This document shows, piece by piece, positions 1,712-33,224 of a stretch of 64,000 nt of DNA. Source of the DNA: Patescibacteria group bacterium (GTDB taxonomy: Bacteria > Patescibacteriota > Patescibacteriia > Magasanikbacterales > GWA2-37-8). Location: contig JBAZUP010000001.1 in assembly GCA_041661385.1 (NCBI GenBank), positions 495,920 through 559,919 of the forward strand, in the 5' to 3' direction. Position 1 is the stretch's first letter. Every line of letters starts with the position of its first letter. The notes under the pieces were generated by a model. It ran no database searches. It had not been told where the DNA came from and saw only the letters and a list, made by a program, of their open reading frames with translations. The position numbers were made by a program, and so were the translations under genes.

Positions 1712-1812
1712 GGAATTTGGTTAAAAAGGAAAAGGCCCCAACTTTATTTATATAGGGGGTATAGTTAATCTAGGATACTGTAAAAATCACACATTGTCAA
1801 TCGTTAATCACT

Positions 1813-2175
1813 CTCGCTGTCGCTCAATCAATTCATTCTTTTATCTTAATTTCTATTTCCCTAGCCCCGCGCGGGCGGCGGATACTTTCATAACTGAAAG
1901 TATCCAAAGGTTTTGGGGGTCGGCAGAACTCGTCGTGCGAACTCCTCAAACAGCTGGCGGCCCCCAAACCCCCGTTGGCTGGTCAACCAATCGCCCCTGA
2001 GCATTTGTGAAACGAGTTGCAAACTGTCCGGCGAAATTAGATTTTTTCAATACGACTATGATGATTTGAAAAAATCGTTTTGGTTTCGCCGTGACATTTG
2101 CCGAGTGGAACAACCGCTCGGCAGCTTTTGATTACTTTTCGCTGACGAAAAGTGATGCCAGCGCGGCGAGCGCTG
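1813..2175 (+). repeat. Structured repeat family, copy 1, about 360 nt; candidate ncRNA or structured MITE
   Basis: Components: start block ctcgctgtcgctcaatca; perfect 11-bp hairpin ggatactttca/taac/tgaaagtatcc at 1880-1905; stem-enclosed module 1912-1972; hairpin acttttcg/ctga/cgaaaagt at 2133-2152; closing hairpin cagcgc/ggcga/gcgctg at 2159-2175. The 5' hairpin and the 3' hairpin are imperfect inverted copies of one another. Confidence 0.75.
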
Positions 2176-2294: not shown

Positions 2295-2744
2295 ATGAAG
2301 AAAGCTACTGCTTTTTTAGTAACGGTTCTCGGAGTACTCGCCTTAACCGGCGCAGGCTGCAATAAAACCGAGGAAACAATTAATACAACCGAAGAAAAAG
2401 AAACTGCCACTAGTACCACAACCACCACCTCCGAAGAAAGTGGAGCTACTGAAGAAGCTTCTCAAATCGAAGCAACTGTTGAAGCCTTGGGAAACGGCGC
2501 AGTATCTGTTAAATGGACAGTTCCAGAAAACTTTGACCGCACCAAAAGCTTCCAGGTTCTACACAGCGCGAAACCAAATCCAGTTCACCCAACCGCTTTC
2601 TGGTTTCAATATATGAACGACACTCGCACTACCGAACTAAACAATGTAACTCCTGGTAAACGATACTTCCGCGTCTGTGCCTTTGATCTCACAAAAAATG
2701 AATGTGCCAGTTTTTCAAACGAAGTTGAGTTGGAAGTGAAATAA
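2295..2744 (+). CDS. Lipoprotein with a Thr/Glu-rich linker and an Ig/FN3-like C-terminal domain
   Basis: Signal peptide plus lipobox: MKKATAFLVTVLGVLALTGAGC. Low-complexity TTTTTSEESGATEE linker. Followed by a rho-independent terminator. Confidence 0.55.
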   Translation: MKKATAFLVTVLGVLALTGAGCNKTEETINTTEEKETATSTTTTTSEESGATEEASQIEATVEALGNGAVSVKWTVPENFDRTKSFQVLHSAKPNPVHPTAFWFQYMNDTRTTELNNVTPGKRYFRVCAFDLTKNECASFSNEVELEVK

Positions 2745-2820: not shown

Positions 2821-3450
2821 TTACTCCAGCACCATCGGTAATGGATGAGTAATTTTTATTTGCCACCAGGCCTTTAGTCTCGCTCCAACTTCTCTAAATT
2901 TCATCCAGGCCAAATCGCCGCCGTAACTATGTAAATCGGCCGCAACACCAATAGTTTTGATTCCGAAATTTTCGCAAAGATAAATAATTCTCGGCAGATG
3001 AAAAGCTTGGGAAACTGCAATAACCTCGGTAAATCCAAAAATATTTGCTTCGCGATAACAACTTTCATAAGTTCGGTAGCCATGCCGGTCTAAAATTATT
3101 TTATTTTCCGGCACCCCAAAACTCATCGCCGCCTTTTTCATCGCATCGACTTCATTTTGGTATCTTTTCCCGTCATCTCCGGTCATCATTAAAATACTTA
3201 CTTTACCGGTTTTATAAAGCGCCACTCCCTCCACAATCCGGTCAGTCAGCATTTCGTTCGGCGTACCATCTGCATTTAATCCCCCGCCAAATATCAATCC
3301 AACTGTTGAAGTTGGAACATCTGCCGGAAAAACAATTTTATCTGATTTTTTTATTATGACGAGATTAGCGTAGATTATAAAAATAAAAAAGACCCCCATT
3401 AAAGTTATTACCACGCTCAAGCTAATAAATTTCCAGTGATGTTTAAGCAT
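2821..3450 (-). CDS. DUF218 (YdcF/SanA/ElyC-like) family protein
   Basis: N-terminal TM, then GLIFGGGLNADGTPNEMLTDRIVEGVALYKTGKV...MMTGDDG, typical of DUF218. ATG at 3448-3450 overlaps the uvrB stop. Confidence 0.6.
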   Translation of the reverse strand: MLKHHWKFISLSVVITLMGVFFIFIIYANLVIIKKSDKIVFPADVPTSTVGLIFGGGLNADGTPNEMLTDRIVEGVALYKTGKVSILMMTGDDGKRYQNEVDAMKKAAMSFGVPENKIILDRHGYRTYESCYREANIFGFTEVIAVSQAFHLPRIIYLCENFGIKTIGVAADLHSYGGDLAWMKFREVGARLKAWWQIKITHPLPMVLE

Positions 3451-5554
3451 TTGGTTTAATTGGCTTAGTTTTTTTTATTTTTAATTTATCTTCGGCATCC
3501 CCGACTTTTTCTCGGGCTTTAAGTTCGCGCATTTCATCCCGAAGTATCGCCGCGAGTTCAAAGTCTAGATCATGCGCGGCCTGCTTCATCTGTACTTCCT
3601 TCTCCTTTATTATAACATTAAGCGAGCGTCCATCGCCAATGAGGTCGAGTTCGGTGGTGGTGGCAAGGCGGTCACGTCGCTTCTTGGCCTCGCGGTTCTT
3701 AGCCCGGTCCGGCGAAATACCAAACTCTTCCAAAATATTCCGAATGGATTTTTCAATAGTTTTAGGCGTGATACCATGTTTCTCATTATACGCGATCTGA
3801 ATTTTCCGGCGGCGGCTAGTTTCATCCATGGCTTTTTGCATTGAACCGGTAATATTGTCGGCATACAAAACAACCTGCCCGTTTACATTGCGGGCGGCGC
3901 GGCCAATGGTCTGAATCAAACTTACCTCACTACGCAAGAACCCTTCTTTGTCAGCATCAAGAATTGCGACAAGTGAGACTTCGGGCATATCAAGACCCTC
4001 ACGCAATAAGTTGACCCCAACTATCACATCATTTTTTCCTAGCCGGAGATTGGTAATTATTTCAATTCGATCGAGAGTATCAACATCACTATGCAAATAA
4101 GCCACTTTAATTTTTTTCTCTTTTAAATAATCAGTCAGATCCTCGGCCATTTTTTTGGTAAGAGTGGTGACCAAAACCCGCTCCTTCATTTTAATTCTTT
4201 CTTCAATGCGGATAATTAAATCTTCTACCTGAGAAAGTTGCTTGCCGTCTTTTTTTCCGACGATTGGACGAATAATAATTTCCGGATCAATAAGACCAGT
4301 CGGCCGGGCAATCTGCTCAGCAACGCGTTCACTTATCTTTAATTCGTACTCCGTAGGCGTGGCAGAAACATAAACCGCTTGACCAACTTTTTTATCAAAC
4401 TCTGTATAAGTGAGCGGCCGGTTGTCGCGCGCGCTTGGCAATCGAAAGCCGTGTTCAACTAACGTATTTTTGCGCGCTTGATCACCATTATACATGGCCC
4501 GAATTTGCGGCAAGGTAACATGGCACTCGTCGATGATGGTCAAAAAATTTGCTTGTCCACCGCCACTGCCGTGAATAAAATAATCTAGGAGGGTAAAGGG
4601 CGGTTCGCCGGCACCGCGCCCTTCAAAGTGCGCGGAATAATTTTCTATGCCGCTGCAATAACCGACATTTTTTATCATTTGTAAATCATACGCGACCCGA
4701 CGCTTTAATCGTTCGTACTCCAACACTTTGCCGTTCTTTTCAAAAAATGCGAGCTGATCCTGCAATTCTTTATTGATGGTATTAAAAGCCATTTTCCGAC
4801 TTTCTTCTCCTACTACATAATGGCGGGCCGGAAAAAACCAAGCGTCTTCGATAACTTTTTTTACGGTTCTGCTCACGCTATCCACGAGCTCAATATTATC
4901 GATATGATTAGAAATTTCAAACCGATAAATTGCGTCTTCATTCACGGGCATAATTTCAAACACCTGACCGCGTAATCGGAATGAGCCCCGCTTCATTTCG
5001 CTATTAGTGCGAGTGAATTGCATGGAGATAAGCTGCTCGAGCATCGCTCGTCGGTCGAGTTTGTCGCCCTTGCGTAAATGTAAAACAATTTTTTCATATT
5101 CAAATGGCGAGCCAAGGCCGTAGATAGCCGAGACAGATGCGACTATGATGACATCTTTACGCGTAAGAAGCGCCTGAGTGCAGGCGTGGCGGAGGCGGTC
5201 GATTTCTTCATTTATCATCGCTTCCTTCTCTATATATGTATCCGAATTTGGCATGTACGCCTCGGGCTGATAGTAATCATAATAAGAAACAAAATATTCC
5301 ACGGCGTTGTGTGGAAAGAATTCGCGGAACTCGTTGCAGAGCTGAGCAGCTAAGGTTTTGTTATGGGCGATAACGAGCGTTGCCTTTTGCGTTCGCTCTA
5401 TTACATTCGCCATGGTAAAGGTTTTGCCCGAGCCGGTAACGCCAAGCAGAGTCTGCCGACGCATACCTTTTTCTATTCCATCGACCAAATCATCAATCGC
5501 TTTCGGCTGGTCTCCGGCTGGAGTCATTTTTGAGACTATTTTAAATTTTGGCAT
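3443..5554 (-). CDS. uvrB: Excinuclease ABC subunit B
   Basis: 703 aa. N-terminus PAGDQPKAIDDLVDGIEKG...GVTGSGKTFTMANVI (helicase motif I), DECH-type motif IIDECHVT, C-terminal UVR coiled-coil AAILRDEMRELKAREK. Confidence 0.95.
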   Translation of the reverse strand: MPKFKIVSKMTPAGDQPKAIDDLVDGIEKGMRRQTLLGVTGSGKTFTMANVIERTQKATLVIAHNKTLAAQLCNEFREFFPHNAVEYFVSYYDYYQPEAYMPNSDTYIEKEAMINEEIDRLRHACTQALLTRKDVIIVASVSAIYGLGSPFEYEKIVLHLRKGDKLDRRAMLEQLISMQFTRTNSEMKRGSFRLRGQVFEIMPVNEDAIYRFEISNHIDNIELVDSVSRTVKKVIEDAWFFPARHYVVGEESRKMAFNTINKELQDQLAFFEKNGKVLEYERLKRRVAYDLQMIKNVGYCSGIENYSAHFEGRGAGEPPFTLLDYFIHGSGGGQANFLTIIDECHVTLPQIRAMYNGDQARKNTLVEHGFRLPSARDNRPLTYTEFDKKVGQAVYVSATPTEYELKISERVAEQIARPTGLIDPEIIIRPIVGKKDGKQLSQVEDLIIRIEERIKMKERVLVTTLTKKMAEDLTDYLKEKKIKVAYLHSDVDTLDRIEIITNLRLGKNDVIVGVNLLREGLDMPEVSLVAILDADKEGFLRSEVSLIQTIGRAARNVNGQVVLYADNITGSMQKAMDETSRRRKIQIAYNEKHGITPKTIEKSIRNILEEFGISPDRAKNREAKKRRDRLATTTELDLIGDGRSLNVIIKEKEVQMKQAAHDLDFELAAILRDEMRELKAREKVGDAEDKLKIKKTKPIKPNA

Positions 5555-5556
5555 AT

Positions 5557-5733
5557 TTTCAATCGTTACAATGGGGGTCTGGGGGCCGCCAGCTGTTTGA
5601 GGAGCTCGCGCGACGAGTTCTGCCGGCCCCTCAGAACCTTTTGATTACTTTTCAGTTATGAAAAGTGATGCCGCCGGCAGGGCTAACGAAAATTATATTA
5701 AAGAAATACTTGATTTGATTGAGCGACAGCGAG
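5557..5733 (-). repeat. Structured repeat family, copy 3; inverted orientation, 5' portion only, abuts the uvrB start
   Basis: Reverse complement reads ctcgctgtcgctcaatca...ggcatcacttttcataactgaaaagtaatc...ggggccggcagaactcgtcgcgcgagctcctcaaacagctggcggcccccagaccccc. This is collinear with copy 1 at 1813-1975. Confidence 0.7.
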
Positions 5734-5835
5734 AAAGTGGAATCTAAAGACACGTTGTCTTTTCCCTCTATTCTTGTTATTCTACAGGAAATTGAATGAT
5801 TTTAACACGAGGAAGAGAAAAAATCAATATAAGCT

Positions 5836-6348
5836 ATGAATATAGATGATTACGCGAAAATAAATATTAACCCAATCTTCGAGCCAATCAAAAGAATATT
5901 TGAATTCTATGTTCTTGGATCAATATTCGTTCCCCAGCATGAATTTCAAAAATTTGTTATACAGTCACACCCTGAACTTGCCGCCCTAATAAACGACTAC
6001 AACCATGAAGTTGACGTAAAAATTGAAAATCAAACCACGAAAACAAAAACAGCGTTATATTTCACAAGCATAGGCCGTCTGATGATAATTGCAGTTTTTG
6101 ATATTTTGCAATTTTCCAAATACCATAATAAAATAAAGAAGGATGAAATTTATAAATTTACCAAACATTTACGTAATGGAGCGGCTCATGATAATAAATT
6201 TGAAATTTCACCACCATTAAAAAAACCTATTTGTTGGCAAAACAAAACCATAACTAATTCTTTGAACGGCTCTACCGTTATTCCTGATTTTATTGACCCT
6301 ATTACTATAATTTACTTATTATCCGATATTACAGAGTTGATAAAATAA
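5836..6348 (+). CDS. Hypothetical protein with a possible HEPN-like R-x4-H motif
   Basis: 170 aa. Contains KHLRNGAAHDNKF (R-x4-H). No other recognisable motif. Family assignment is weak. Confidence 0.4.
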   Translation: MNIDDYAKININPIFEPIKRIFEFYVLGSIFVPQHEFQKFVIQSHPELAALINDYNHEVDVKIENQTTKTKTALYFTSIGRLMIIAVFDILQFSKYHNKIKKDEIYKFTKHLRNGAAHDNKFEISPPLKKPICWQNKTITNSLNGSTVIPDFIDPITIIYLLSDITELIK

Positions 6349-6425
6349 GAATAACATTTTGTGAAGTTCGACTAATTCACTCAAATAAAACCATACGAAA
6401 GAACTCCATACTGAAATACATATAA

Positions 6426-6956
6426 ATGCATCCCCAGAAAAAAGTAAAAGCCTACAATAATTTTATGATTACCATCAGATTACAAAAAATCAGCGACGCA
6501 AAACGCTTCTTTGAAATCCTCAAAAATCCTAATTTTATTTATTGGGATATTAGGCCAAAAACTATCAAGGATGAAGAAAAGTGGCTAAGAAAAAACCCCG
6601 AGCGACGCCGAAAAAATTCTGAGTTTAATTACTCTATTATTCACATTGGAGAAATAGTCGGAGCGGTAGGTGTAAAAATAAATTCCGGCCGTCCGCACAT
6701 TGGTGAAATTGGCTATTTTTTAGATGAAAAATACTGGGGACAAGGCATCACCACCACAGCAGTAAAATTACTGGAAACAATTTGCTTAAAAAAACTAAAA
6801 CTAAAGCGTCTGGAAATTGTCATGCAACCAGGAAATAAAGCAAGTGAAAAAGTCGCTATCAAATGCGGTTACAAAAAAGAAGGATTGTTAAAAAAATTAC
6901 TTAAACACCAAGATGGTAAATATCACGATAGTTACATGTACGCAAAAACTATTTAA
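6426..6956 (+). CDS. GNAT family N-acetyltransferase (RimJ/RimL-like)
   Basis: HIGEIGYFLDEKYWGQGITTTAVKLLETICLKKLKLKRLEIVMQPGNKASEKVAIKCGYKKEG fits the GNAT fold (acetyl-CoA Q/RxxGxG/A-like segment). Confidence 0.7.
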   Translation: MHPQKKVKAYNNFMITIRLQKISDAKRFFEILKNPNFIYWDIRPKTIKDEEKWLRKNPERRRKNSEFNYSIIHIGEIVGAVGVKINSGRPHIGEIGYFLDEKYWGQGITTTAVKLLETICLKKLKLKRLEIVMQPGNKASEKVAIKCGYKKEGLLKKLLKHQDGKYHDSYMYAKTI

Positions 6957-6966
6957 TAACATCTCT

Positions 6967-7416
6967 ATGAGCAAAGAAAAAGATTTATACCAAGTATCCT
7001 TAAAAGCTGTAATAAAAAATAATAACGGTGAAATTTTGTTGCTAAAAGCGTTGCTCAACGGCTCCCACGCTGGCTACTATGATTTACCCGGCGGGCGCAT
7101 TGATAAGGATGAATTTACCATTCCACTTACGGATATTTTAAAAAGAGAAATTTCGGAAGAAGTTGGGAATATTGATGTCGTAATAAAACCAACGCCTGTC
7201 GCAGTGGCTCGCCACTGTATACCCGGATCTATGACTAAAACCGGCAAAGACATTCATGTTCTATATATTTTATTTGAAGTCGAATATAAAGGAGGAAAAA
7301 TTGTAATCAGCAACGAACATACCGATTTCAAATGGGCGGATTTTTCAAAAGAAAATCCTGAAAATCTTCTTTCGTCCGGAAATTTGGAAGGTATTAAAAT
7401 GTATCTTGCGAAATAA
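6967..7416 (+). CDS. NUDIX hydrolase
   Basis: Nudix box GGRIDKDEFTIPLTDILKREISEEVGN (Gx5Ex7REUxEExGU). Start moved to ATG 6967 (MSKEKDLY) to avoid overlap with the upstream GNAT gene. Confidence 0.7.
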   Translation: MSKEKDLYQVSLKAVIKNNNGEILLLKALLNGSHAGYYDLPGGRIDKDEFTIPLTDILKREISEEVGNIDVVIKPTPVAVARHCIPGSMTKTGKDIHVLYILFEVEYKGGKIVISNEHTDFKWADFSKENPENLLSSGNLEGIKMYLAK

Positions 7417-7462
7417 TATGCTTTTCAACGAACACCTACAAAATAAAATTTAATTATTAAAT

Positions 7463-7723
7463 ATGGACAAAACCGAAATCAGACGTAAGTGGGACCTTTT
7501 ACCAAAAGAAAAAAGACTATCTTGTATTGAGGCAATCGTCACATTTTTTCAAGAAACCCGGGAAGAAAAAATCGGTATAATTGCCGCTGAAGATATCTTA
7601 GACTTCTTTTTGCGGGATATTAGAAAATATATTTATAATAAAGGTGTTGAGGATTCAAAAGAAATTTTAAAAAAAGGTTTTAATAGCTTGGATGTGGATC
7701 TTGCTATTTTACAAGATAAATAA
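7463..7723 (+). CDS. DUF2164-like small acidic protein
   Basis: 86 aa. EEKIGIIAAEDILDFFLRDIRKYIYNKGVEDSK resembles DUF2164, from memory of the family consensus. Confidence 0.45.
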   Translation: MDKTEIRRKWDLLPKEKRLSCIEAIVTFFQETREEKIGIIAAEDILDFFLRDIRKYIYNKGVEDSKEILKKGFNSLDVDLAILQDK

Positions 7724-7724
7724 T

Positions 7725-8030
7725 ATGTTCTACAACAAACTCGTCCGCGATAAAATCCCCGACATAATCAAAAGCAAAGGCGAAACGCCAGTGACGCATA
7801 TTGCGGATGAAAAAGAGTATGCCGAGGCGCTAGCCAAAAAGCTTCACGAAGAAACCGACGAATTTAATACTAAACCCTCGGTAGAAGAAGCGGCAGATAT
7901 TATGGAAGTACTAATGGCGGTCGCGAAGCTAAATAATATTGATTTGAGCGGTTTGGAAGAAGTTCGAAAGAAAAAAGCCACTGACCGCGGCGGGTTTGAA
8001 AAACGAATAATTTTGGACGAAACAAAATAA
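7725..8030 (+). CDS. MazG-like nucleoside triphosphate pyrophosphohydrolase domain protein
   Basis: MFYNKLVRDKIPDII...EEAADIMEVLMAVAKLNNIDL; all-alpha MazG/HisE-type EExxD motif. Start at ATG 7725. Confidence 0.55.
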   Translation: MFYNKLVRDKIPDIIKSKGETPVTHIADEKEYAEALAKKLHEETDEFNTKPSVEEAADIMEVLMAVAKLNNIDLSGLEEVRKKKATDRGGFEKRIILDETK

Positions 8031-8032
8031 TT

Positions 8033-8272
8033 ATGACTAAAAATATTTCGGAAATAATCGGCTGGTATGGAACTGCAGCGATACTACTCGCCTACGCTTT
8101 GTTAAGCTTCGGTGTCTTGTCTTCTAACAATATATTTTATCAACTCTTAAACATCACCGGCGCACTTGGCCTAGTGATAATATCCTTCCGGAAAAAAACC
8201 TACCAACCCGGTATTTTAAATATTATTTGGTCAATTATCGCGGCCATCGCGATAATTAAAATGTTTATATAA
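8033..8272 (+). CDS. Small membrane protein with 2-3 TM helices
   Basis: 79 aa, hydrophobic segments AAILLAYALLSFGVL, LGLVIISF, IIWSIIAAIAIIKMFI. Confidence 0.5.
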   Translation: MTKNISEIIGWYGTAAILLAYALLSFGVLSSNNIFYQLLNITGALGLVIISFRKKTYQPGILNIIWSIIAAIAIIKMFI

Positions 8273-8312
8273 ATAATTATTCTTTTGCACCCCTTTTGGC
8301 AAAAATAACCAT

Positions 8313-19875: not shown

Positions 19876-19948
19876 GCGCCTGTAACTCAGCGGTAAGAGT
19901 GCCACCCTTATAAGGTGGAAGTCGATGGTTCGATTCCATCCAGGCGCA
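19876..19948 (+). tRNA. tRNA, anticodon read as UAU (Ile, AUA-decoding), 73 nt, no encoded CCA
   Basis: gcgcctg/caggcgc acceptor; D-arm actc-agcggtaa-gagt; anticodon arm ccacc-cttataa-ggtgg; T-arm gatgg-ttcgatt-ccatc; discriminator A. Anticodon identity is from a manual fold. Confidence 0.7.
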
Positions 19949-22190: not shown

Positions 22191-25031
22191 TTACAAATAC
22201 TTTCCGGTCCAGCTTTTTTTATTTTTCCGGATATCGGCCGGCGTGCCGACTGCAACTACTTCACCGCCACCTTTGCCACCCTCTGGACCCATATCAATAA
22301 TCCAATCTGCCGAGCGGATGACATCTAGATTGTGTTCAATGATCAAAACCGAGTTACCTTTCAGAACCAATTGACTAAGTACTTGGAGCAAGCGTTTGGT
22401 ATCTTCAAAATGCAAACCAGTCGTAGGTTCGTCTAAGATATACAAAGTATTGCCGGTTGAGGCGCGCGACAATTCCTGAGCGAGTTTAATACGCTGAGCC
22501 TCACCACCGGAAATGGTCGTAGCCGGCTGGCCTAATTCCACATAACCAAGACCAACTTCACGCAAGACATTTAACTTGTCGGAGATGGCTGGATATTCGT
22601 GGAAAAAAGTGTAAGCCTCTTCCACAGTCATTTTTAGAACATCCGCAATATGTTTGTTGTGATATTTAATTTCGAGCGCTTCCTGATTATAACGCAAACC
22701 ATTACACTCGCCGCATTCCACAAACACATCAGCTAAAAATTGCATTGGGATTCGCACATAACCTTCACCAGCACAGGCTTCACAGCGGCCGCCTTTTACA
22801 TTAAAACTAAATTTACCGGCATCATAACCGCGTAGGCGCGCTTCAGACAACGATGAGAAAAGGTCGCGAATCAAAGTAAAGACTCCCGTATAAGTAGCGG
22901 GGTTCGAGCGCGGCGTACGACCAATCGGCGATTGGTCAATTGCGATGACTTTATCAACATTTGAAACACCCTTAATACTTTTGTGAGCACCCGGTTCATC
23001 TTTTGCGCGATAAAAATATTTTGATAATGCCTTACTTAAAATATCAATTATCAAAGTTGATTTACCGGATCCAGAAACACCAGTCACTGCCACTAATTTT
23101 TGCAACGGAATTTCAACATCAATGTTTTTTAAATTAAATGCTTTGGCACCAGTAATAATAATCGATTTTTTAGCTTTAGGTTGTACTTTTGACCGTGGTC
23201 CTTTACGGCGGAATTCTTCACTAATATCAATTCTTCCGGACAAATACTCAGCCGTTAAAGATTTTTTATTTTTCTTAAAATCCGGTAAAGTTCCGGCAGC
23301 AATCACCTCGCCGCCATACACACCGGCGCCGGGACCAATATCAATAAGATAATCAGCTTCGAGCATCATCGCTGGATCGTGTTCAACTACAATCACTGTA
23401 TTACCAAGATCGCGCAAATATTTAAGTGTGTGAATAAGTTTTTGGTTATCACGGGGGTGCAGACCAACCGAGGGCTCGTCGAGAATATAAATAACACCAG
23501 TGAGACCCGCCGAAAGCTGGCTGGCAAGACGCACACGTGTTACTTCACCGCCCGAAAGCGTATTCATGGCCCGGCTAAGATTAAGATAGCCAAGGCCGAC
23601 CTGCTCAAGATTCTGTAGACGCGGCAAAATTTCACGAATAATCGGCTCGACAATTTTAGAGGATTTTTTATAATTTTCAGCTTTATCGTTTTTTGTTTTT
23701 ATATCAATCCCAAACATTTTTACCAAAAAAGTCCGGCTCTCTTCAATACTCATACCGGCCATATCCGAAATTGTATACTCGCCTACTCGAACCGAGAGTG
23801 ATTCTTGACGCAGACGTTTGCCCTGACAAATCGGACAAATTTTTTCGCGCATGTATTGTTCAATTTCTTTACGGACATATTCAGAATTTGTTTCGAGGTG
23901 CTTTTGCATCAGATCCGGTATTACACCAGGATAAGAAACTTTTTTTCCATCGACATCAAACCTTTCACTGCCGCTTCCGTACAAAATAATATTAAGAGTC
24001 TTGGCTTGTAATTCTGCGACCGGAGTATGTACAGAAAAACCATAAAGCTCTGCCACTTTGGTCAGAATCTTTTGATACCAGCTCTGGTTTCCGGTGATTC
24101 GGGTCCAAGGCTGAATCGCGCCTTCGGCAAGCGTTAATTTACTATTTGGTATTACTAATGTTGGATCTACTTCCATGGTCACACCAAGACCGGTACAGCG
24201 CTGGCAAGCACCATAGGGGCTATTAAAACTAAAGCTGCGCATGTCGAGCGTCGGCATTATGCGACCACAGCGCGGACAAAGTCCAACCGTAGAAAAAAGT
24301 TGAGATTTGTCACCGGTCACAATTTTAACGAGACCATTGCTAAGGTCCTCAGCGGTTTCAACCGGTTTTGTGAGGTCATCTTTTTTTACATTCATTATTT
24401 TTCCGACCAGCAAATCTACATCATAAGGCTGCTCATCAAAAAATTTGTATTCTGCAAGTTCATTTATTTTTAAAAGTTCACCGTTTACTCTCACCCATTC
24501 ATAACCGGACTTCTCTATTTTTTCAATCAAATCCTTTGATTCCACCATGGAATCACGCACCAGCGGCGCATATATTTCCACCAATACCGCTTTGCGCGCC
24601 AGTTCACGTACTTTCTCTACTATCTTTCCAACTGAAAAAACTTCTACCGGAATATGGCAGTCTGGACAGTGCTGAGTACCGGAACGTGCAAAAAGCAAAC
24701 GCAAGTAATCATAAATTTCAGTAACCGTTCCGACAGTTGAACGTGGATTCTGAGTAGAAACTTTTTGGTCAATCGCGATAGTCGGTGAAAGACCGTCAAT
24801 GGAATCGACGTCGGGCTTATCTTGCACATCCATAAACTGCCTGGCGTAAGATGAAAGCGATTCGGCATAACGGCGCTGGCCTTCGGCGTAAATAGTATCA
24901 AAGGCAAGACTGGATTTACCGGAACCCGAAAGACCGGTGATTACCACCAGTTTATTCTTCGGAATTTCCAGGCTAATATTTTTTAAGTTGTGCGCCCGAG
25001 CTCCTTTAATTATCAATTTCTGATTTGGCAT
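22191..25031 (-). CDS. uvrA: Excinuclease ABC subunit A, full length
   Basis: 946 aa. Two ABC modules ([25 protein letters not shown]), signature [12 protein letters not shown], zinc-finger Cys clusters. Confidence 0.95.
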
Positions 25032-29581: not shown

Positions 29582-29666
29582 GCGGACGTGGCGGAACTGG
29601 TATACGCGTACGTCTCAGAAGCGTATGGAGCAATCCTTGAGGGTTCGAGTCCCTCCGTCCGCACCA
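29582..29666 (+). tRNA. tRNA-Leu(CAG), type II with long variable arm, CCA encoded
   Basis: gcggacg...tacgt-ctcagaa-gcgta, variable arm ggagcaatcc, T-arm gaggg-ttcgagt-ccctc, cgtccgc-a-cca. Confidence 0.8.
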
Positions 29667-32796: not shown

Positions 32797-32824
32797 CAAA
32801 AACCCGCCTTGCGGCGGGTTTTTT
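32797..32824. terminator. Bidirectional terminator; 3' end of rnpB on the minus strand
   Basis: aaaaacccgccttgcggcgggtttttt. Confidence 0.75.
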
Positions 32825-32825
32825 A

Positions 32826-33217
32826 GTCTAAAGTTATAAGCCGAATTCTGTCAAGCCTCCCTTTCGGAAGACAGGGATAATCATTTATCTGGGATGGTTG
32901 TTACCAACCACCTCTAGCGAGCGAACTTTTCGAATCCGTTTTACCGGAAACGCTGCTCTTGCATCAGGTAGGGTTTAGCACACTCGTAAATCGCTTTACA
33001 AGGAGTATAGTGGCTTTGATCTAGAACCAAAACCTCCATACACTTTTCACCTTTCATCCCGACTAAATCGGAACTAGTATTGTCTCTGTGCCACTTTCCC
33101 GACTGCCGTATCACTACGGGAGTGGTGGGCGTTACCCACTACCACTTTCCGCCTTGCGACGGAGATGTTCGGACTTTCCTCCCCATGCGAAGCATGGAGC
33201 GATTATCTACTTTAGAC
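32826..33217 (-). ncRNA. rnpB: RNase P RNA
   Basis: Minus-strand motifs: GGAAAGUCCGAAC (P4 5' strand), GAAAGUGGCACAGAGACAA, ACAGAAUUCGGCUUAU (P4 3' strand). P1 pairs gucuaaagu (5') with acuuuagac (3'). Confidence 0.85.
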
Positions 33218-33224
33218 GGTAAAT

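What the first reader, a model, noticed from the sequence alone, without database searches (positions are those of the whole stretch)
5557..5733. Truncated inverted repeat copy fused to the uvrB start; family members sit in 5' leaders
Copy 3 lies on the minus strand in the same direction as uvrB. It ends 3 nt from the uvrB ATG (5554), inside its conserved ccccRaaccccc-Rttg block, which places the element in the 5' untranslated leader of uvrB. Copy 1 is likewise oriented toward the lipoprotein gene at 2295. Copies 3 and 2 bracket the 5836-8272 gene block. This placement fits either a cis-acting leader element or insertion-site preference.
Basis: partly seen in the sequence, partly recalled or inferred. 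Interest (0 to 1): 0.5.

Follow-up and report, generated by a model that had tools for sequence, protein, structure and literature searches.

The report
Repeat-element insertion in uvrB leader
A 166-base piece of a dispersed, hairpin-rich, non-coding repeat has been inserted between the promoter and start codon of the DNA-repair gene uvrB in one Patescibacteria genome; the insertion is ordinary, but one hairpin loop in it recurs almost letter for letter in many bacterial phyla and matches no Rfam RNA family.

Summary
The repeat is real. There are three copies in the first 9 kb of the window and none in the other 55 kb. They are copy 1 (1812-2174, +), copy 2 (8312-8693, +) and copy 3 (5569-5734, -).

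Copy 3 runs in the uvrB direction. Detectable homology ends at 5569, which is 14 nt before the ATG, not 3 nt.

The closest relatives by UvrB (85-89% identical) lack the element at the same sites. A promoter-like block conserved in one of them (L003) lies upstream of copy 3. So copy 3 is an insertion into the inferred uvrB 5' leader, not a conserved leader element.

Copy 1 sits between divergent promoters and copy 2 between convergent gene ends, so the family is not leader-associated.

Each unit has four parts:
- a terminal box, TCTCGCTRTCGCTCAA;
- an AT-rich spacer;
- a small hairpin, H1;
- a long hairpin, H2, with apical loop AACTCGTCG-N5/6-CTCCTCAAACA.

One relative has the box at both ends as an inverted repeat.

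The exact H2 loop occurs in more than 118 loci from many phyla, on covarying stems, with no recurring neighbour gene and no Rfam match.

Best reading: a decayed unit of a MITE/REPIN-like mobile repeat, passively co-transcribed with uvrB.

The parts
5569..5734 (-). Copy 3: one unit of the repeat (box + spacer + H1 + H2), inserted between the uvrB promoter-like site and the start codon.
   Evidence: BLASTN against copy 1 gives 82.5% over 171 nt, E=7e-36; nhmmer agrees; alignment A1. The element is absent from the orthologous site in L002, L003 and L004.
5719..5734 (-). Terminal box TCTCGCTGTCGCTCAA of copy 3.
   Evidence: The same box heads copies 1 and 2 (exact matches to the box pattern, which allows R at position 8). 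In L128 it forms both termini as a 29-nt, 90% inverted repeat.
5644..5669 (-). H1 hairpin of copy 3 (ATCACTTTTC-ataact-GAAAAGTAAT).
   Evidence: Read from the sequence and present in the fold. H1-type hairpins also precede H2 in Saccharibacteria, Magasanikbacteria and Bacteroidales loci.
5575..5638 (-). H2 hairpin of copy 3. The stem is GGGGCCGGCAG / CTGGCGGCCCC and the apical loop is AACTCGTCGCGCGAGCTCCTCAAACA (5594-5619).
   Evidence: Covariance model hit of 39.3 bits, E=5e-11 at 5580-5633. Exact loop match. Helix covariation measured on 64 instances.
5555..5568 (-). A/U-rich junction (TAACGATTGAAAAT) between the end of the repeat and the uvrB ATG. It is predicted to be unpaired.
5799..5827 (-). 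uvrB promoter-like site TTGATT-17-TAAAAT with an extended TG. It lies upstream of copy 3.
   Evidence: Promoter scan. It aligns with TTGAAA-17-TAAACT (TG) in L003, 49 nt before that gene's ATG.
3443..5554 (-). uvrB coding sequence (703 aa).
1812..2174 (+). Copy 1, a double unit in the uvrA-lipoprotein spacer. Its parts are: box 1812-1827, H1 1880-1905, H2 1909-1970 (loop 1927-1952), inner hairpins 2030-2124, inverted H1' 2130-2157, and GC hairpin 2160-2174.
   Evidence: It is an insertion relative to L003 and L002.
8312..8693 (+). Copy 2, a double unit abutting the rodA stop codon. Its parts are: box 8312-8327, H1 8381-8406, a left H2 with a non-canonical loop (about 8410-8478), an inverted H2 with a variant loop at 8551-8600 (-), inverted H1' 8649-8676, and GC hairpin 8679-8693.
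   Evidence: Covariance model hit of 14.9 bits, E=0.015 on the minus strand.

Best explanation
Copy 3 is one unit of a non-coding, hairpin-rich dispersed repeat. The unit is terminal box + AT-rich spacer + hairpin H1 + hairpin H2. The repeat resembles MITEs and REPINs.

The unit was inserted into the 5' untranslated region of uvrB in this lineage. That lengthened the leader from roughly 40-50 nt to roughly 240 nt. The original promoter stays upstream, and an unstructured A/U-rich stretch remains in front of the ATG.

The unit is most likely transcribed passively with uvrB and is tolerated there. It was not selected as a uvrB regulator.

The full elements (copies 1 and 2) are two such units in inverted orientation.

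The recurring strand-specific word CTCG-Nx-CGCTC(CTC)AAWCA occurs at the element terminus (the box) and in the apical loop of H2. I infer that this word is the recognition site of whatever machinery moves or maintains the element, probably acting on folded single-stranded DNA.

What is shown and what is inferred:
- Shown: the homology, the insertion polymorphism, the positions relative to conserved promoter-like blocks, and the hairpins with their covariation.
- Inferred: that transcription runs through the element, that the element is mobile, and what reads the motif.
For: - Three copies at 78-93% identity lie within 9 kb, and there are none elsewhere in the window.
- The uvrB-upstream site is empty in the closest relatives L002, L003 and L004, and the uvrA-lipoprotein site is empty in L002 and L003, the only two that cover it.
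- The promoter-like block lies upstream of the insertion and aligns with its counterpart in L003.
- No terminator-like or promoter-like site lies on the uvrB strand within 5555-5734.
- The start-codon region is predicted to be unpaired.
- There is no conserved ORF or Pfam hit in the element.
- Inverted termini are seen in relatives: L128 has 29 nt at 90%, including the box; L006 has 26 nt at 92%.
- A solo H1+H2 unit also exists in L124.
- The H2 stem covaries: 71.9% of cells are paired against 42.8% in shuffles, and the covariation score is 0.692 against at most 0.294 in slid controls. There are 76 distinct 8-nt arms among 103 instances.
- The flanks are strongly strand-asymmetric, for example TCCTCG 33 versus 1.
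- No gene family recurs next to the module, and orientation relative to neighbouring genes is unbiased.
Against: - The window copies lack the right-hand inverted box, so terminal inverted repeats are seen only in relatives.
- No target-site duplication was found.
- No transposase or autonomous partner was found.
- A 25-nt loop identical across phyla is not what ordinary, lineage-specific MITEs or REPs show. It hints at a conserved function at the RNA or single-stranded DNA level.
- A related element also sits 88 nt upstream of uvrB, in the same orientation, in a genome with different synteny (L005/L006). That leaves room for a uvr-linked role or an insertion hotspot.
- No transcript data are available.
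Confidence: 0.6

Rival explanations
1. The units are genes or domains of a structured non-coding RNA. The pyrimidine-rich H2 loop (…GCUCCUCAAACA) would act in trans or in cis, for example by pairing with purine-rich ribosome-binding sites or by binding a universal RNA-binding factor. Copy 3 would then modulate uvrB mRNA.
For: - The loop is invariant across phyla while the stems covary.
- The flanks are strongly strand-asymmetric.
- The folding energy of full copies is well below shuffles, z = -7.1 and -5.7.
- From memory only: the loop resembles the NusB/NusE boxA word GCUCUUUAACAA and contains an anti-Shine-Dalgarno-like CUCCU. These resemblances were not tested.
Against: - No promoter or terminator is conserved around the units (and inspection).
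- Orientation relative to neighbouring genes is random.
- The element is present or absent between close relatives.
- There is no Rfam match even at E<=5.
- No complementary target was found in the window.
- The leader fold of copy 3 is only modestly better than shuffles, z = -2.3.
Confidence: 0.17
2. The elements are domesticated punctuation marks for transcription, acting as terminators or insulators or as mRNA-end stabilisers, as is known for REP/BIME sequences. Copy 3 would attenuate or stabilise the uvrB transcript.
For: - Terminator-like sites (a GC hairpin followed by the T-run of H1) face inward at both ends of the L006 element.
- Similar sites occur in copy 1 (2098-2124, +) and copy 2 (8695->8677, -).
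- Copy 2 and L127 lie at gene 3' ends.
Against: - No terminator-like site was called on the uvrB strand in copy 3.
- The conserved loop and box are not explained by a terminator role.
- Copy 1 lies between divergent promoters.
Confidence: 0.13
3. It is a dedicated cis-regulatory leader of nucleotide-excision-repair genes, for example a damage-responsive operator or riboregulator shared by uvrA and uvrB.
For: - Copies lie next to uvrA and uvrB in this genome.
- A related element lies upstream of uvrB in L005/L006.
Against: - The element is absent upstream of uvrB in L002, L003 and L004 and absent from the uvrA spacer in L002 and L003.
- Copy 1 lies upstream of the uvrA promoter-like site and points away from uvrA.
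- L127, L128 and L124 carry the element next to unrelated genes.
- The second uvrA paralogue (22191-25031) has no copy.
Confidence: 0.05

Closest known systems
MITEs (miniature inverted-repeat transposable elements), e.g. Correia/NEMIS elements of Neisseria
   Same: Both are small (about 170-450 nt), non-coding, multi-copy and fold into long hairpins. Both show insertion polymorphism between close relatives and can land in 5' leaders, where they are co-transcribed. Inverted termini are present in the relatives L128 and L006.
   Different: No target-site duplication or partner transposase was found. The window copies lack one terminus. The elements are mosaics of modules. One module carries a strand-specific 25-nt loop that is identical across phyla, whereas MITE families are normally confined to a lineage.
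REP / BIME / REPIN elements mobilised by RAYT (Y1 HUH) transposases
   Same: Both have hairpin units that occur singly or as inverted doublets. Both have strand-specific motifs, an intergenic location, terminator-like side effects and a mosaic organisation.
   Different: The units here are much longer (100-170 nt against 20-40 nt). No RAYT gene was seen near any copy. REP sequences differ between genera, while the H2 loop here does not.
BOX and RUP elements of Streptococcus pneumoniae; ERIC/IRU of enterobacteria
   Same: These are modular (boxA/B/C-like) or long imperfect palindromes found in intergenic regions. They are often transcribed within UTRs, and their mobility mechanism is unclear.
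   Different: There is no sequence similarity, and those elements have a narrow taxonomic range.
IS200/IS605-type ends and integron attC sites (folded single-strand recombination substrates)
   Same: In both, function is read from one strand of a hairpin. The stems can vary while specific unpaired bases are conserved.
   Different: In those systems the conserved bases lie at the hairpin foot or as extrahelical bases, not in a 25-nt apical loop. No cognate enzyme gene lies nearby. This is an analogy only.

Membership tests
MITE (non-autonomous DNA transposon) | Small size and no coding capacity. | tested here: met
   The elements are 166-450 nt. ORFs are not shared between copies and there is no Pfam hit.
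MITE (non-autonomous DNA transposon) | Several dispersed copies, with presence/absence polymorphism at orthologous sites. | tested here: met
   There are three copies in the window. Sites are empty in L002, L003 and L004.
MITE (non-autonomous DNA transposon) | Terminal inverted repeats. | tested here: inconclusive
   Met in L128 (29 nt at 90%) and in L006 (26 nt at 92%). The window copies have the box at one end only.
MITE (non-autonomous DNA transposon) | Target-site duplication. | tested here: inconclusive
   No matching flanks were seen at five left ends and four right ends. The ends are decayed, so exact boundaries are uncertain.
MITE (non-autonomous DNA transposon) | An autonomous partner with the same ends that encodes a transposase. 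| tested here: inconclusive
   None was found among ORFs within 2.5 kb of about 120 module instances or in the gene block. Whole genomes were not searchable.
REP/REPIN | A short (20-40 nt) palindromic unit with a conserved 5' tetranucleotide. | tested here: not met
   The units are 100-170 nt with two different hairpins.
REP/REPIN | An associated RAYT (Y1 transposase) gene flanked by units. | not tested
   Only 8-kb stretches were held. No recurrent neighbour family was found, but no RAYT-specific search was run.
cis-regulatory 5' leader RNA of uvrB | Conserved upstream of orthologous genes. | tested here: not met
   It is absent in L002, L003 and L004, whose UvrB is 85-89% identical.
cis-regulatory 5' leader RNA of uvrB | Lies between the promoter and the start codon, in the sense orientation. 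| tested here: met
   This holds for copy 3 only, and by inference from the conserved promoter-like block. It does not hold for copies 1 and 2.
Any Rfam 15 RNA family | A covariance-model match. | tested here: not met
   No hit falls on the element or module, either at gathering score or at E<=1-5.
Intrinsic terminator / attenuator in the uvrB leader | A GC-rich hairpin followed by a U-tract on the transcribed strand. | tested here: not met
   No site was called on the minus strand within 5555-5734. H2 is followed by AGACCCCCAUUG.

The most novel reading that the evidence does not exclude
The H2 module, often preceded by H1, is a hairpin whose stem is free to vary and whose 25-26-nt apical loop, AACUCGUCGCUnyGCUCCUCAAACA, is kept letter for letter. 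It would be an undescribed structured nucleic-acid element, spanning many phyla, read on one strand as RNA or single-stranded DNA.

The taxa that carry it include Pseudomonadota, Bacteroidota, Clostridia, Aerophobetes, Saccharibacteria, Kazan and Magasanikbacteria.

In this reading it is recognised by a factor common to very different bacteria. It would ride on, or constitute, a new class of non-autonomous mobile element. The uvrB leader copy would be one incidental landing.
Probability: 0.3. Interest if true: 0.8.

Novelty: new variant of a known kind. Interest (0 to 1): 0.5.

Why it matters
For uvrB itself the result is modest. It is a natural example of a repair gene whose leader was lengthened about five-fold by a structured repeat, apparently without losing its promoter or start site.

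The wider point is the module inside the repeat. A 20-base pattern expected about twice by chance in the species-representative genome collection was found in more than 118 loci from very different phyla. It is always the loop of a hairpin with covarying stems, has no associated gene, and has no entry in Rfam.

If this is not already described elsewhere, it marks either a very broad-host mobile repeat or a conserved RNA or single-stranded DNA signal whose reader is unknown. Several cultured bacteria carry it, so the question is experimentally accessible.

Tried and rejected
- Rfam, at gathering score and at permissive E-values, on the window and on 17 + 9 module-bearing loci: nothing falls on the element.
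- Full-text search for the loop strings: only unrelated primers. Keyword searches for MITEs or structured repeats in the candidate phyla radiation: nothing relevant.
- BLAST of elements against E. coli genomes, plasmids and phages: no meaningful hit.
- Clustering of proteins encoded within 2.5 kb of about 120 module instances: only housekeeping families, each in at most 6 loci, and no transposase.
- Pfam on the gene block 5836-8272 and on ORFs inside the repeats: GNAT, NUDIX and DUF2164, with no mobility gene.
- Composite-transposon reading of copies 3 and 2: rejected. The box ends face inward, the outer end of copy 3 is truncated, and the MazG-like gene is ancestral at the locus.
- Target-site duplications: none recognisable.
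- A promoter inside the element driving uvrB: none called.
- An antisense target of the loop in the window: none.
- A weak covariance-model hit in L004 (5389-5437): it lies inside a coding region and was dismissed.
- Four of the six metagenome hits to the box (L126, L129, L130, L131) are not this element.

Full report
**Source and gene map**

The window is part of a 217-kb metagenome contig (ENA ERZ27249449, k141_161267). It belongs to a Patescibacteria bacterium; the nearest named UvrB proteins are from Candidatus Magasanikbacteria. GC content is 40.6%.

The gene order around the finding, in window coordinates, is:
- uvrA on the minus strand, starting near 1711 and running off the left end of the window;
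- a lipoprotein gene, 2295-2744 (+);
- a DUF218 gene, 2821-3450 (-);
- uvrB, 3443-5554 (-);
- six small genes, 5836-8272 (+);
- rodA/ftsW, 8692-9822 (-);
- gyrB further on.

**1. The observation**

A repeat family is really present. There are two full copies: copy 1 (1812-2174, +) and copy 2 (8312-8693, +). There is one short copy on the minus strand, copy 3.

Copy 3 matches the first 166 nt of copy 1 at 82.5% identity (E=7e-36; nhmmer E=7e-25).

A word-7 BLAST, a pattern search with mismatches and a covariance model run without filters all find no further copy in the other 55 kb.

Copy 3 points the same way as uvrB. The N-terminus MPKFKIVSK is conserved in relatives, so ATG 5554 is the true start.

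Homology ends with '…cccccagacccccattg' at 5569. That is 14 nt before the ATG, not 3 nt.

**2. Anatomy**

Each unit has four parts in a fixed order:
- a terminal box, TCTCGCTRTCGCTCAA (copy 3: 5734->5719);
- an AT-rich spacer of about 35-40 nt;
- a small hairpin, H1, with a T-run and an A-run in its stem (copy 3: 5669->5644), followed by AAAGG;
- a long GC-rich hairpin, H2 (copy 3: 5638->5575), whose apical loop is AACTCGTCG-N6-CTCCTCAAACA (5619->5594).

Copy 3 is exactly one such unit.

Copies 1 and 2 are two units in inverted orientation around a variable centre. Their 3' hairpin H1' is the reverse complement of H1 (family D1 and pair I4).

Copy 2 carries its best H2 loop on the opposite strand, at 8551-8600. 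Its left H2 has a different loop on a different but still complementary stem, GTCGATAT/ATATCGAC.

No ORF is shared by the copies, and element ORFs have no Pfam match.

**3. It is an insertion**

The three closest relatives by UvrB identity are L002 (89%), L003 (86%) and L004 (85%). None has the element.

L002 and L003 keep the same gene order as the window.
- In L003 the rodA-uvrB spacer is 415 bp and the lipoprotein-uvrA spacer 157 bp. In the window these are 3.1 kb and 584 bp.
- Alignment of the uvrB upstream regions (A3) shows a block, GTTAAAatCATTCAATTTatTGTAGAATA, shared by the window and L003.
- In L003 this block ends about 30 nt before the ATG. In the window it lies upstream of copy 3.

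The consensus scan calls a promoter-like site at the same aligned place in both:
- window: TTGATT-17-TAAAAT with an extended TG, at 5827->5799 (-);
- L003: TTGAAA-17-TAAACT with TG, at 9924-9952.

The simplest history is therefore an insertion between the promoter and the start codon. It stretched the leader from about 40-50 nt to about 240 nt.

On the uvrB strand no promoter-like or terminator-like site is called within 5555-5734. In the predicted fold of the leader, H1 and H2 form and the start-codon region stays open. Transcription through the element is an inference; there are no transcript data.

**4. The family is not leader-associated**

- Copy 1 lies between the uvrA promoter-like site (TTGACA-17-TATCCT, 1800->1772, -) and the lipoprotein promoter-like site (TTGCCA-17-TATATT, 2240-2268, +). 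The latter is conserved in L002 and L003. So copy 1 is upstream of both promoters.
- Copy 2 lies between two converging genes, and its last base abuts the rodA stop codon.
- A metagenome scan with the box found two true relatives. L127 lies after the terminator of a gene I read as a NiFe-hydrogenase large subunit (from its translation only, no domain search). L128 lies between two unrelated genes.
- A solo H1+H2 unit lies upstream of a gene that reads like idi (by eye from the sequence) in a Magasanikbacteria genome (L124).
A 409-nt related element ends 88 nt upstream of uvrB in the same orientation, and a second copy follows the DUF218 gene. Whether the first lies in that gene's leader cannot be told.

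**5. Ends and mobility**

- In L128 the box is present at both ends as a 29-nt, 90% inverted repeat: GGCaTATaTTCTCGCTATCGCTCAAAcAC … GTCTTTGAGCGATAGCGAGAAAATAGGCC.
- In L006 the termini are a 26-nt, 92% inverted repeat.
- The window copies have only the left box. They are decayed or incomplete.
- I found no target-site duplication and no transposase.
- The gene block 'bracketed' by copies 3 and 2 encodes GNAT, NUDIX, DUF2164 and MazG-like proteins. Its MazG-like gene is 80% identical to one at the same place in L002, which has no repeats. The block is therefore a variable region, not cargo of a composite transposon.

**6. The unexpected part: the H2 loop across phyla**

I scanned the GTDB species-representative genome collection for AACTCGTCG-N5/6-CTCCTCAAACA. 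By my own arithmetic, 20 fixed bases on both strands of 596 Gb with two gap lengths should give about 2 chance hits.

The loci come from Halopseudomonas, Pseudomonas abyssi, Marinobacterium, Neptuniibacter, Thauera, Uliginosibacterium, Bacteroidales, Aerophobetes, Clostridia, Peptococcaceae, Saccharibacteria, Kazan, Microgenomates, Magasanikbacteria and others. There are often several per genome. A few hits lie in coding sequence and are probably chance (for example L010, L062, L074).

In the rest, the motif is the apical loop of a hairpin whose stem differs from lineage to lineage.
- 48 of 103 distinct instances have 8 of 8 closing pairs.
- 72% have at least 7 of 8 pairs, against 20% when arms are paired with the wrong partner.
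- There are 76 different 8-nt left arms.

On a fixed-register alignment of 64 instances:
- 71.9% of cells pair, against 42.8% in shuffles (0 of 500 shuffles reach the observed value);
- the covariation score is 0.692, against at most 0.294 when partners are slid;
- all 8 pairs show changes on both sides.

The 'variable' middle of the loop is itself mostly CTnyG.

The flanks are strongly strand-asymmetric: TCCTCG occurs 33 versus 1 times and TGCTCG 35 versus 3. One strand therefore carries the information.

An H1-type hairpin precedes H2 in Saccharibacteria, Magasanikbacteria and Bacteroidales as well.

No protein family recurs nearby. Orientation relative to neighbouring ORFs shows no bias (the ORF calling is crude in high-GC genomes).

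Rfam 15 has no match to the module even at E<=5.

By my own reading of the sequences, not a statistical test, the terminal box looks like a compact version of the loop word: CTCG-N4-CGCTCAATCA against AACTCG-N8-12-CGCTC(CTC)AAACA. L128's H2 loop, AACTCGcgccgcgaggCGCTCAAACA, is intermediate. In L126 the box itself sits in a hairpin loop.

**7. Mechanism**

Most likely (about 0.6): copy 3 is a single, partly decayed unit of a non-autonomous, hairpin-forming mobile repeat. It landed in the uvrB leader and is carried along in the transcript. The shared word at the terminus and in the H2 loop is the site read by the mobilising or maintaining machinery, probably on folded single-stranded DNA. I infer this from the strand asymmetry and from the loop presentation.

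Rivals:
- a structured RNA whose pyrimidine-rich loop acts on ribosome-binding sites or binds a universal factor (0.17);
- REP-like terminator or stabiliser elements (0.13), supported by inward-facing terminator-like ends in L006 and in copies 1 and 2, but not by copy 3 on the uvrB strand;
- a dedicated uvr regulator (0.05), which the comparative data largely exclude.

**8. Relation to known kinds**

The element behaves like a MITE or REPIN. It is small, non-coding, multi-copy, polymorphic, hairpin-forming and inverted-ended in some members. However, several defining tests are unmet or inconclusive:
- no target-site duplication;
- no partner transposase or RAYT;
- units far longer than REPs.

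The loop conserved across phyla has no counterpart in those families that I know of. I therefore class the finding as a new variant of a known kind. Separately, with probability about 0.3, the H1/H2 module may be an undescribed class of structured element.

**Verdict**

- The leader placement of copy 3 is supported by comparative evidence.
- The 'family of leader elements' reading is not supported.
- The insertion itself is ordinary.
- The conserved loop inside it deserves follow-up.

Noticed in passing
L008-L125 (e.g. L038 5845-5869, L034 1089-1113, L018 584-609): The H2 loop AACTCGTCG-N5/6-CTCCTCAAACA occurs in more than 118 loci from many phyla. It is always a hairpin loop on covarying stems, is often multi-copy, has no Rfam match and has no recurrent neighbour gene.
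   Followed up: partly
window 22191-25031 (-): A second UvrA-like gene (946 aa; Pfam UvrA_inter, UvrA_DNA-bind) is present in addition to the 859-aa uvrA at the left edge of the window. No repeat copy lies next to it.
   Followed up: no
window 5836-8272: The rodA-uvrB spacer is a variable, low-GC (0.28-0.37) region. It holds six small genes here (unknown, GNAT, NUDIX, DUF2164, MazG-like, 79-aa ORF with a hydrophobic sequence (my reading)), two in L002 and one in L003. The MazG-like gene is 80% identical to the one in L002.
   Followed up: partly
L003 about 13230-13250 (empty site of copy 1): The empty uvrA-lipoprotein site in L003 reads ACTCTCTCG|AATGGG, where the window has CACTCTCG|CTGTCGCTC… and later AAATGGGTGG (2187-2197). 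This could be an excision or deletion footprint, or chance.
   Followed up: no
L128 5445-5512: The only box-to-box element has two left boxes 28 nt apart: an outer TCTCGCTATCGCTCAA and an inner TCTCGCTGTCGCTCAATCAA.
   Followed up: no
L130 about 8100-8300: There are tandem repeats of about 56 nt, each containing a box-like CTCGCTnTnGCTC word, in an unrelated metagenome contig.
   Followed up: no
L126 about 5500-5560: The 20-nt box lies in the loop of a hairpin, GTTGGGTTA…TAACCCAAC, in an unrelated contig. This mirrors how the H2 loop is presented.
   Followed up: no
L006 7465-7484 and 7835-7873; window 2098-2124 (+), 8677-8695 (-): The element ends combine a GC hairpin with the T-run of H1. 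This gives terminator-like sites that face into the element from both sides.
   Followed up: partly
L006 7410-7460: A lone H1-like hairpin (ACTACTTTTagcggcAAAAAGTGAT) sits just outside the left terminus of the full element. It may be a remnant of another unit.
   Followed up: no
L038 3489-3539 (-) and 3833-3905 (+): There are two xanthine (NMT1) riboswitch matches on opposite strands, 300 nt apart, in Pseudomonas abyssi. They are unrelated to the repeat.
   Followed up: no
window 32821-33218 (-), 19876-19948 (+), 29582-29663 (+), 2782-2810: The window also holds an RNase P RNA (class A), two tRNA genes, and a bidirectional terminator-like hairpin between the lipoprotein and DUF218 genes.
   Followed up: no
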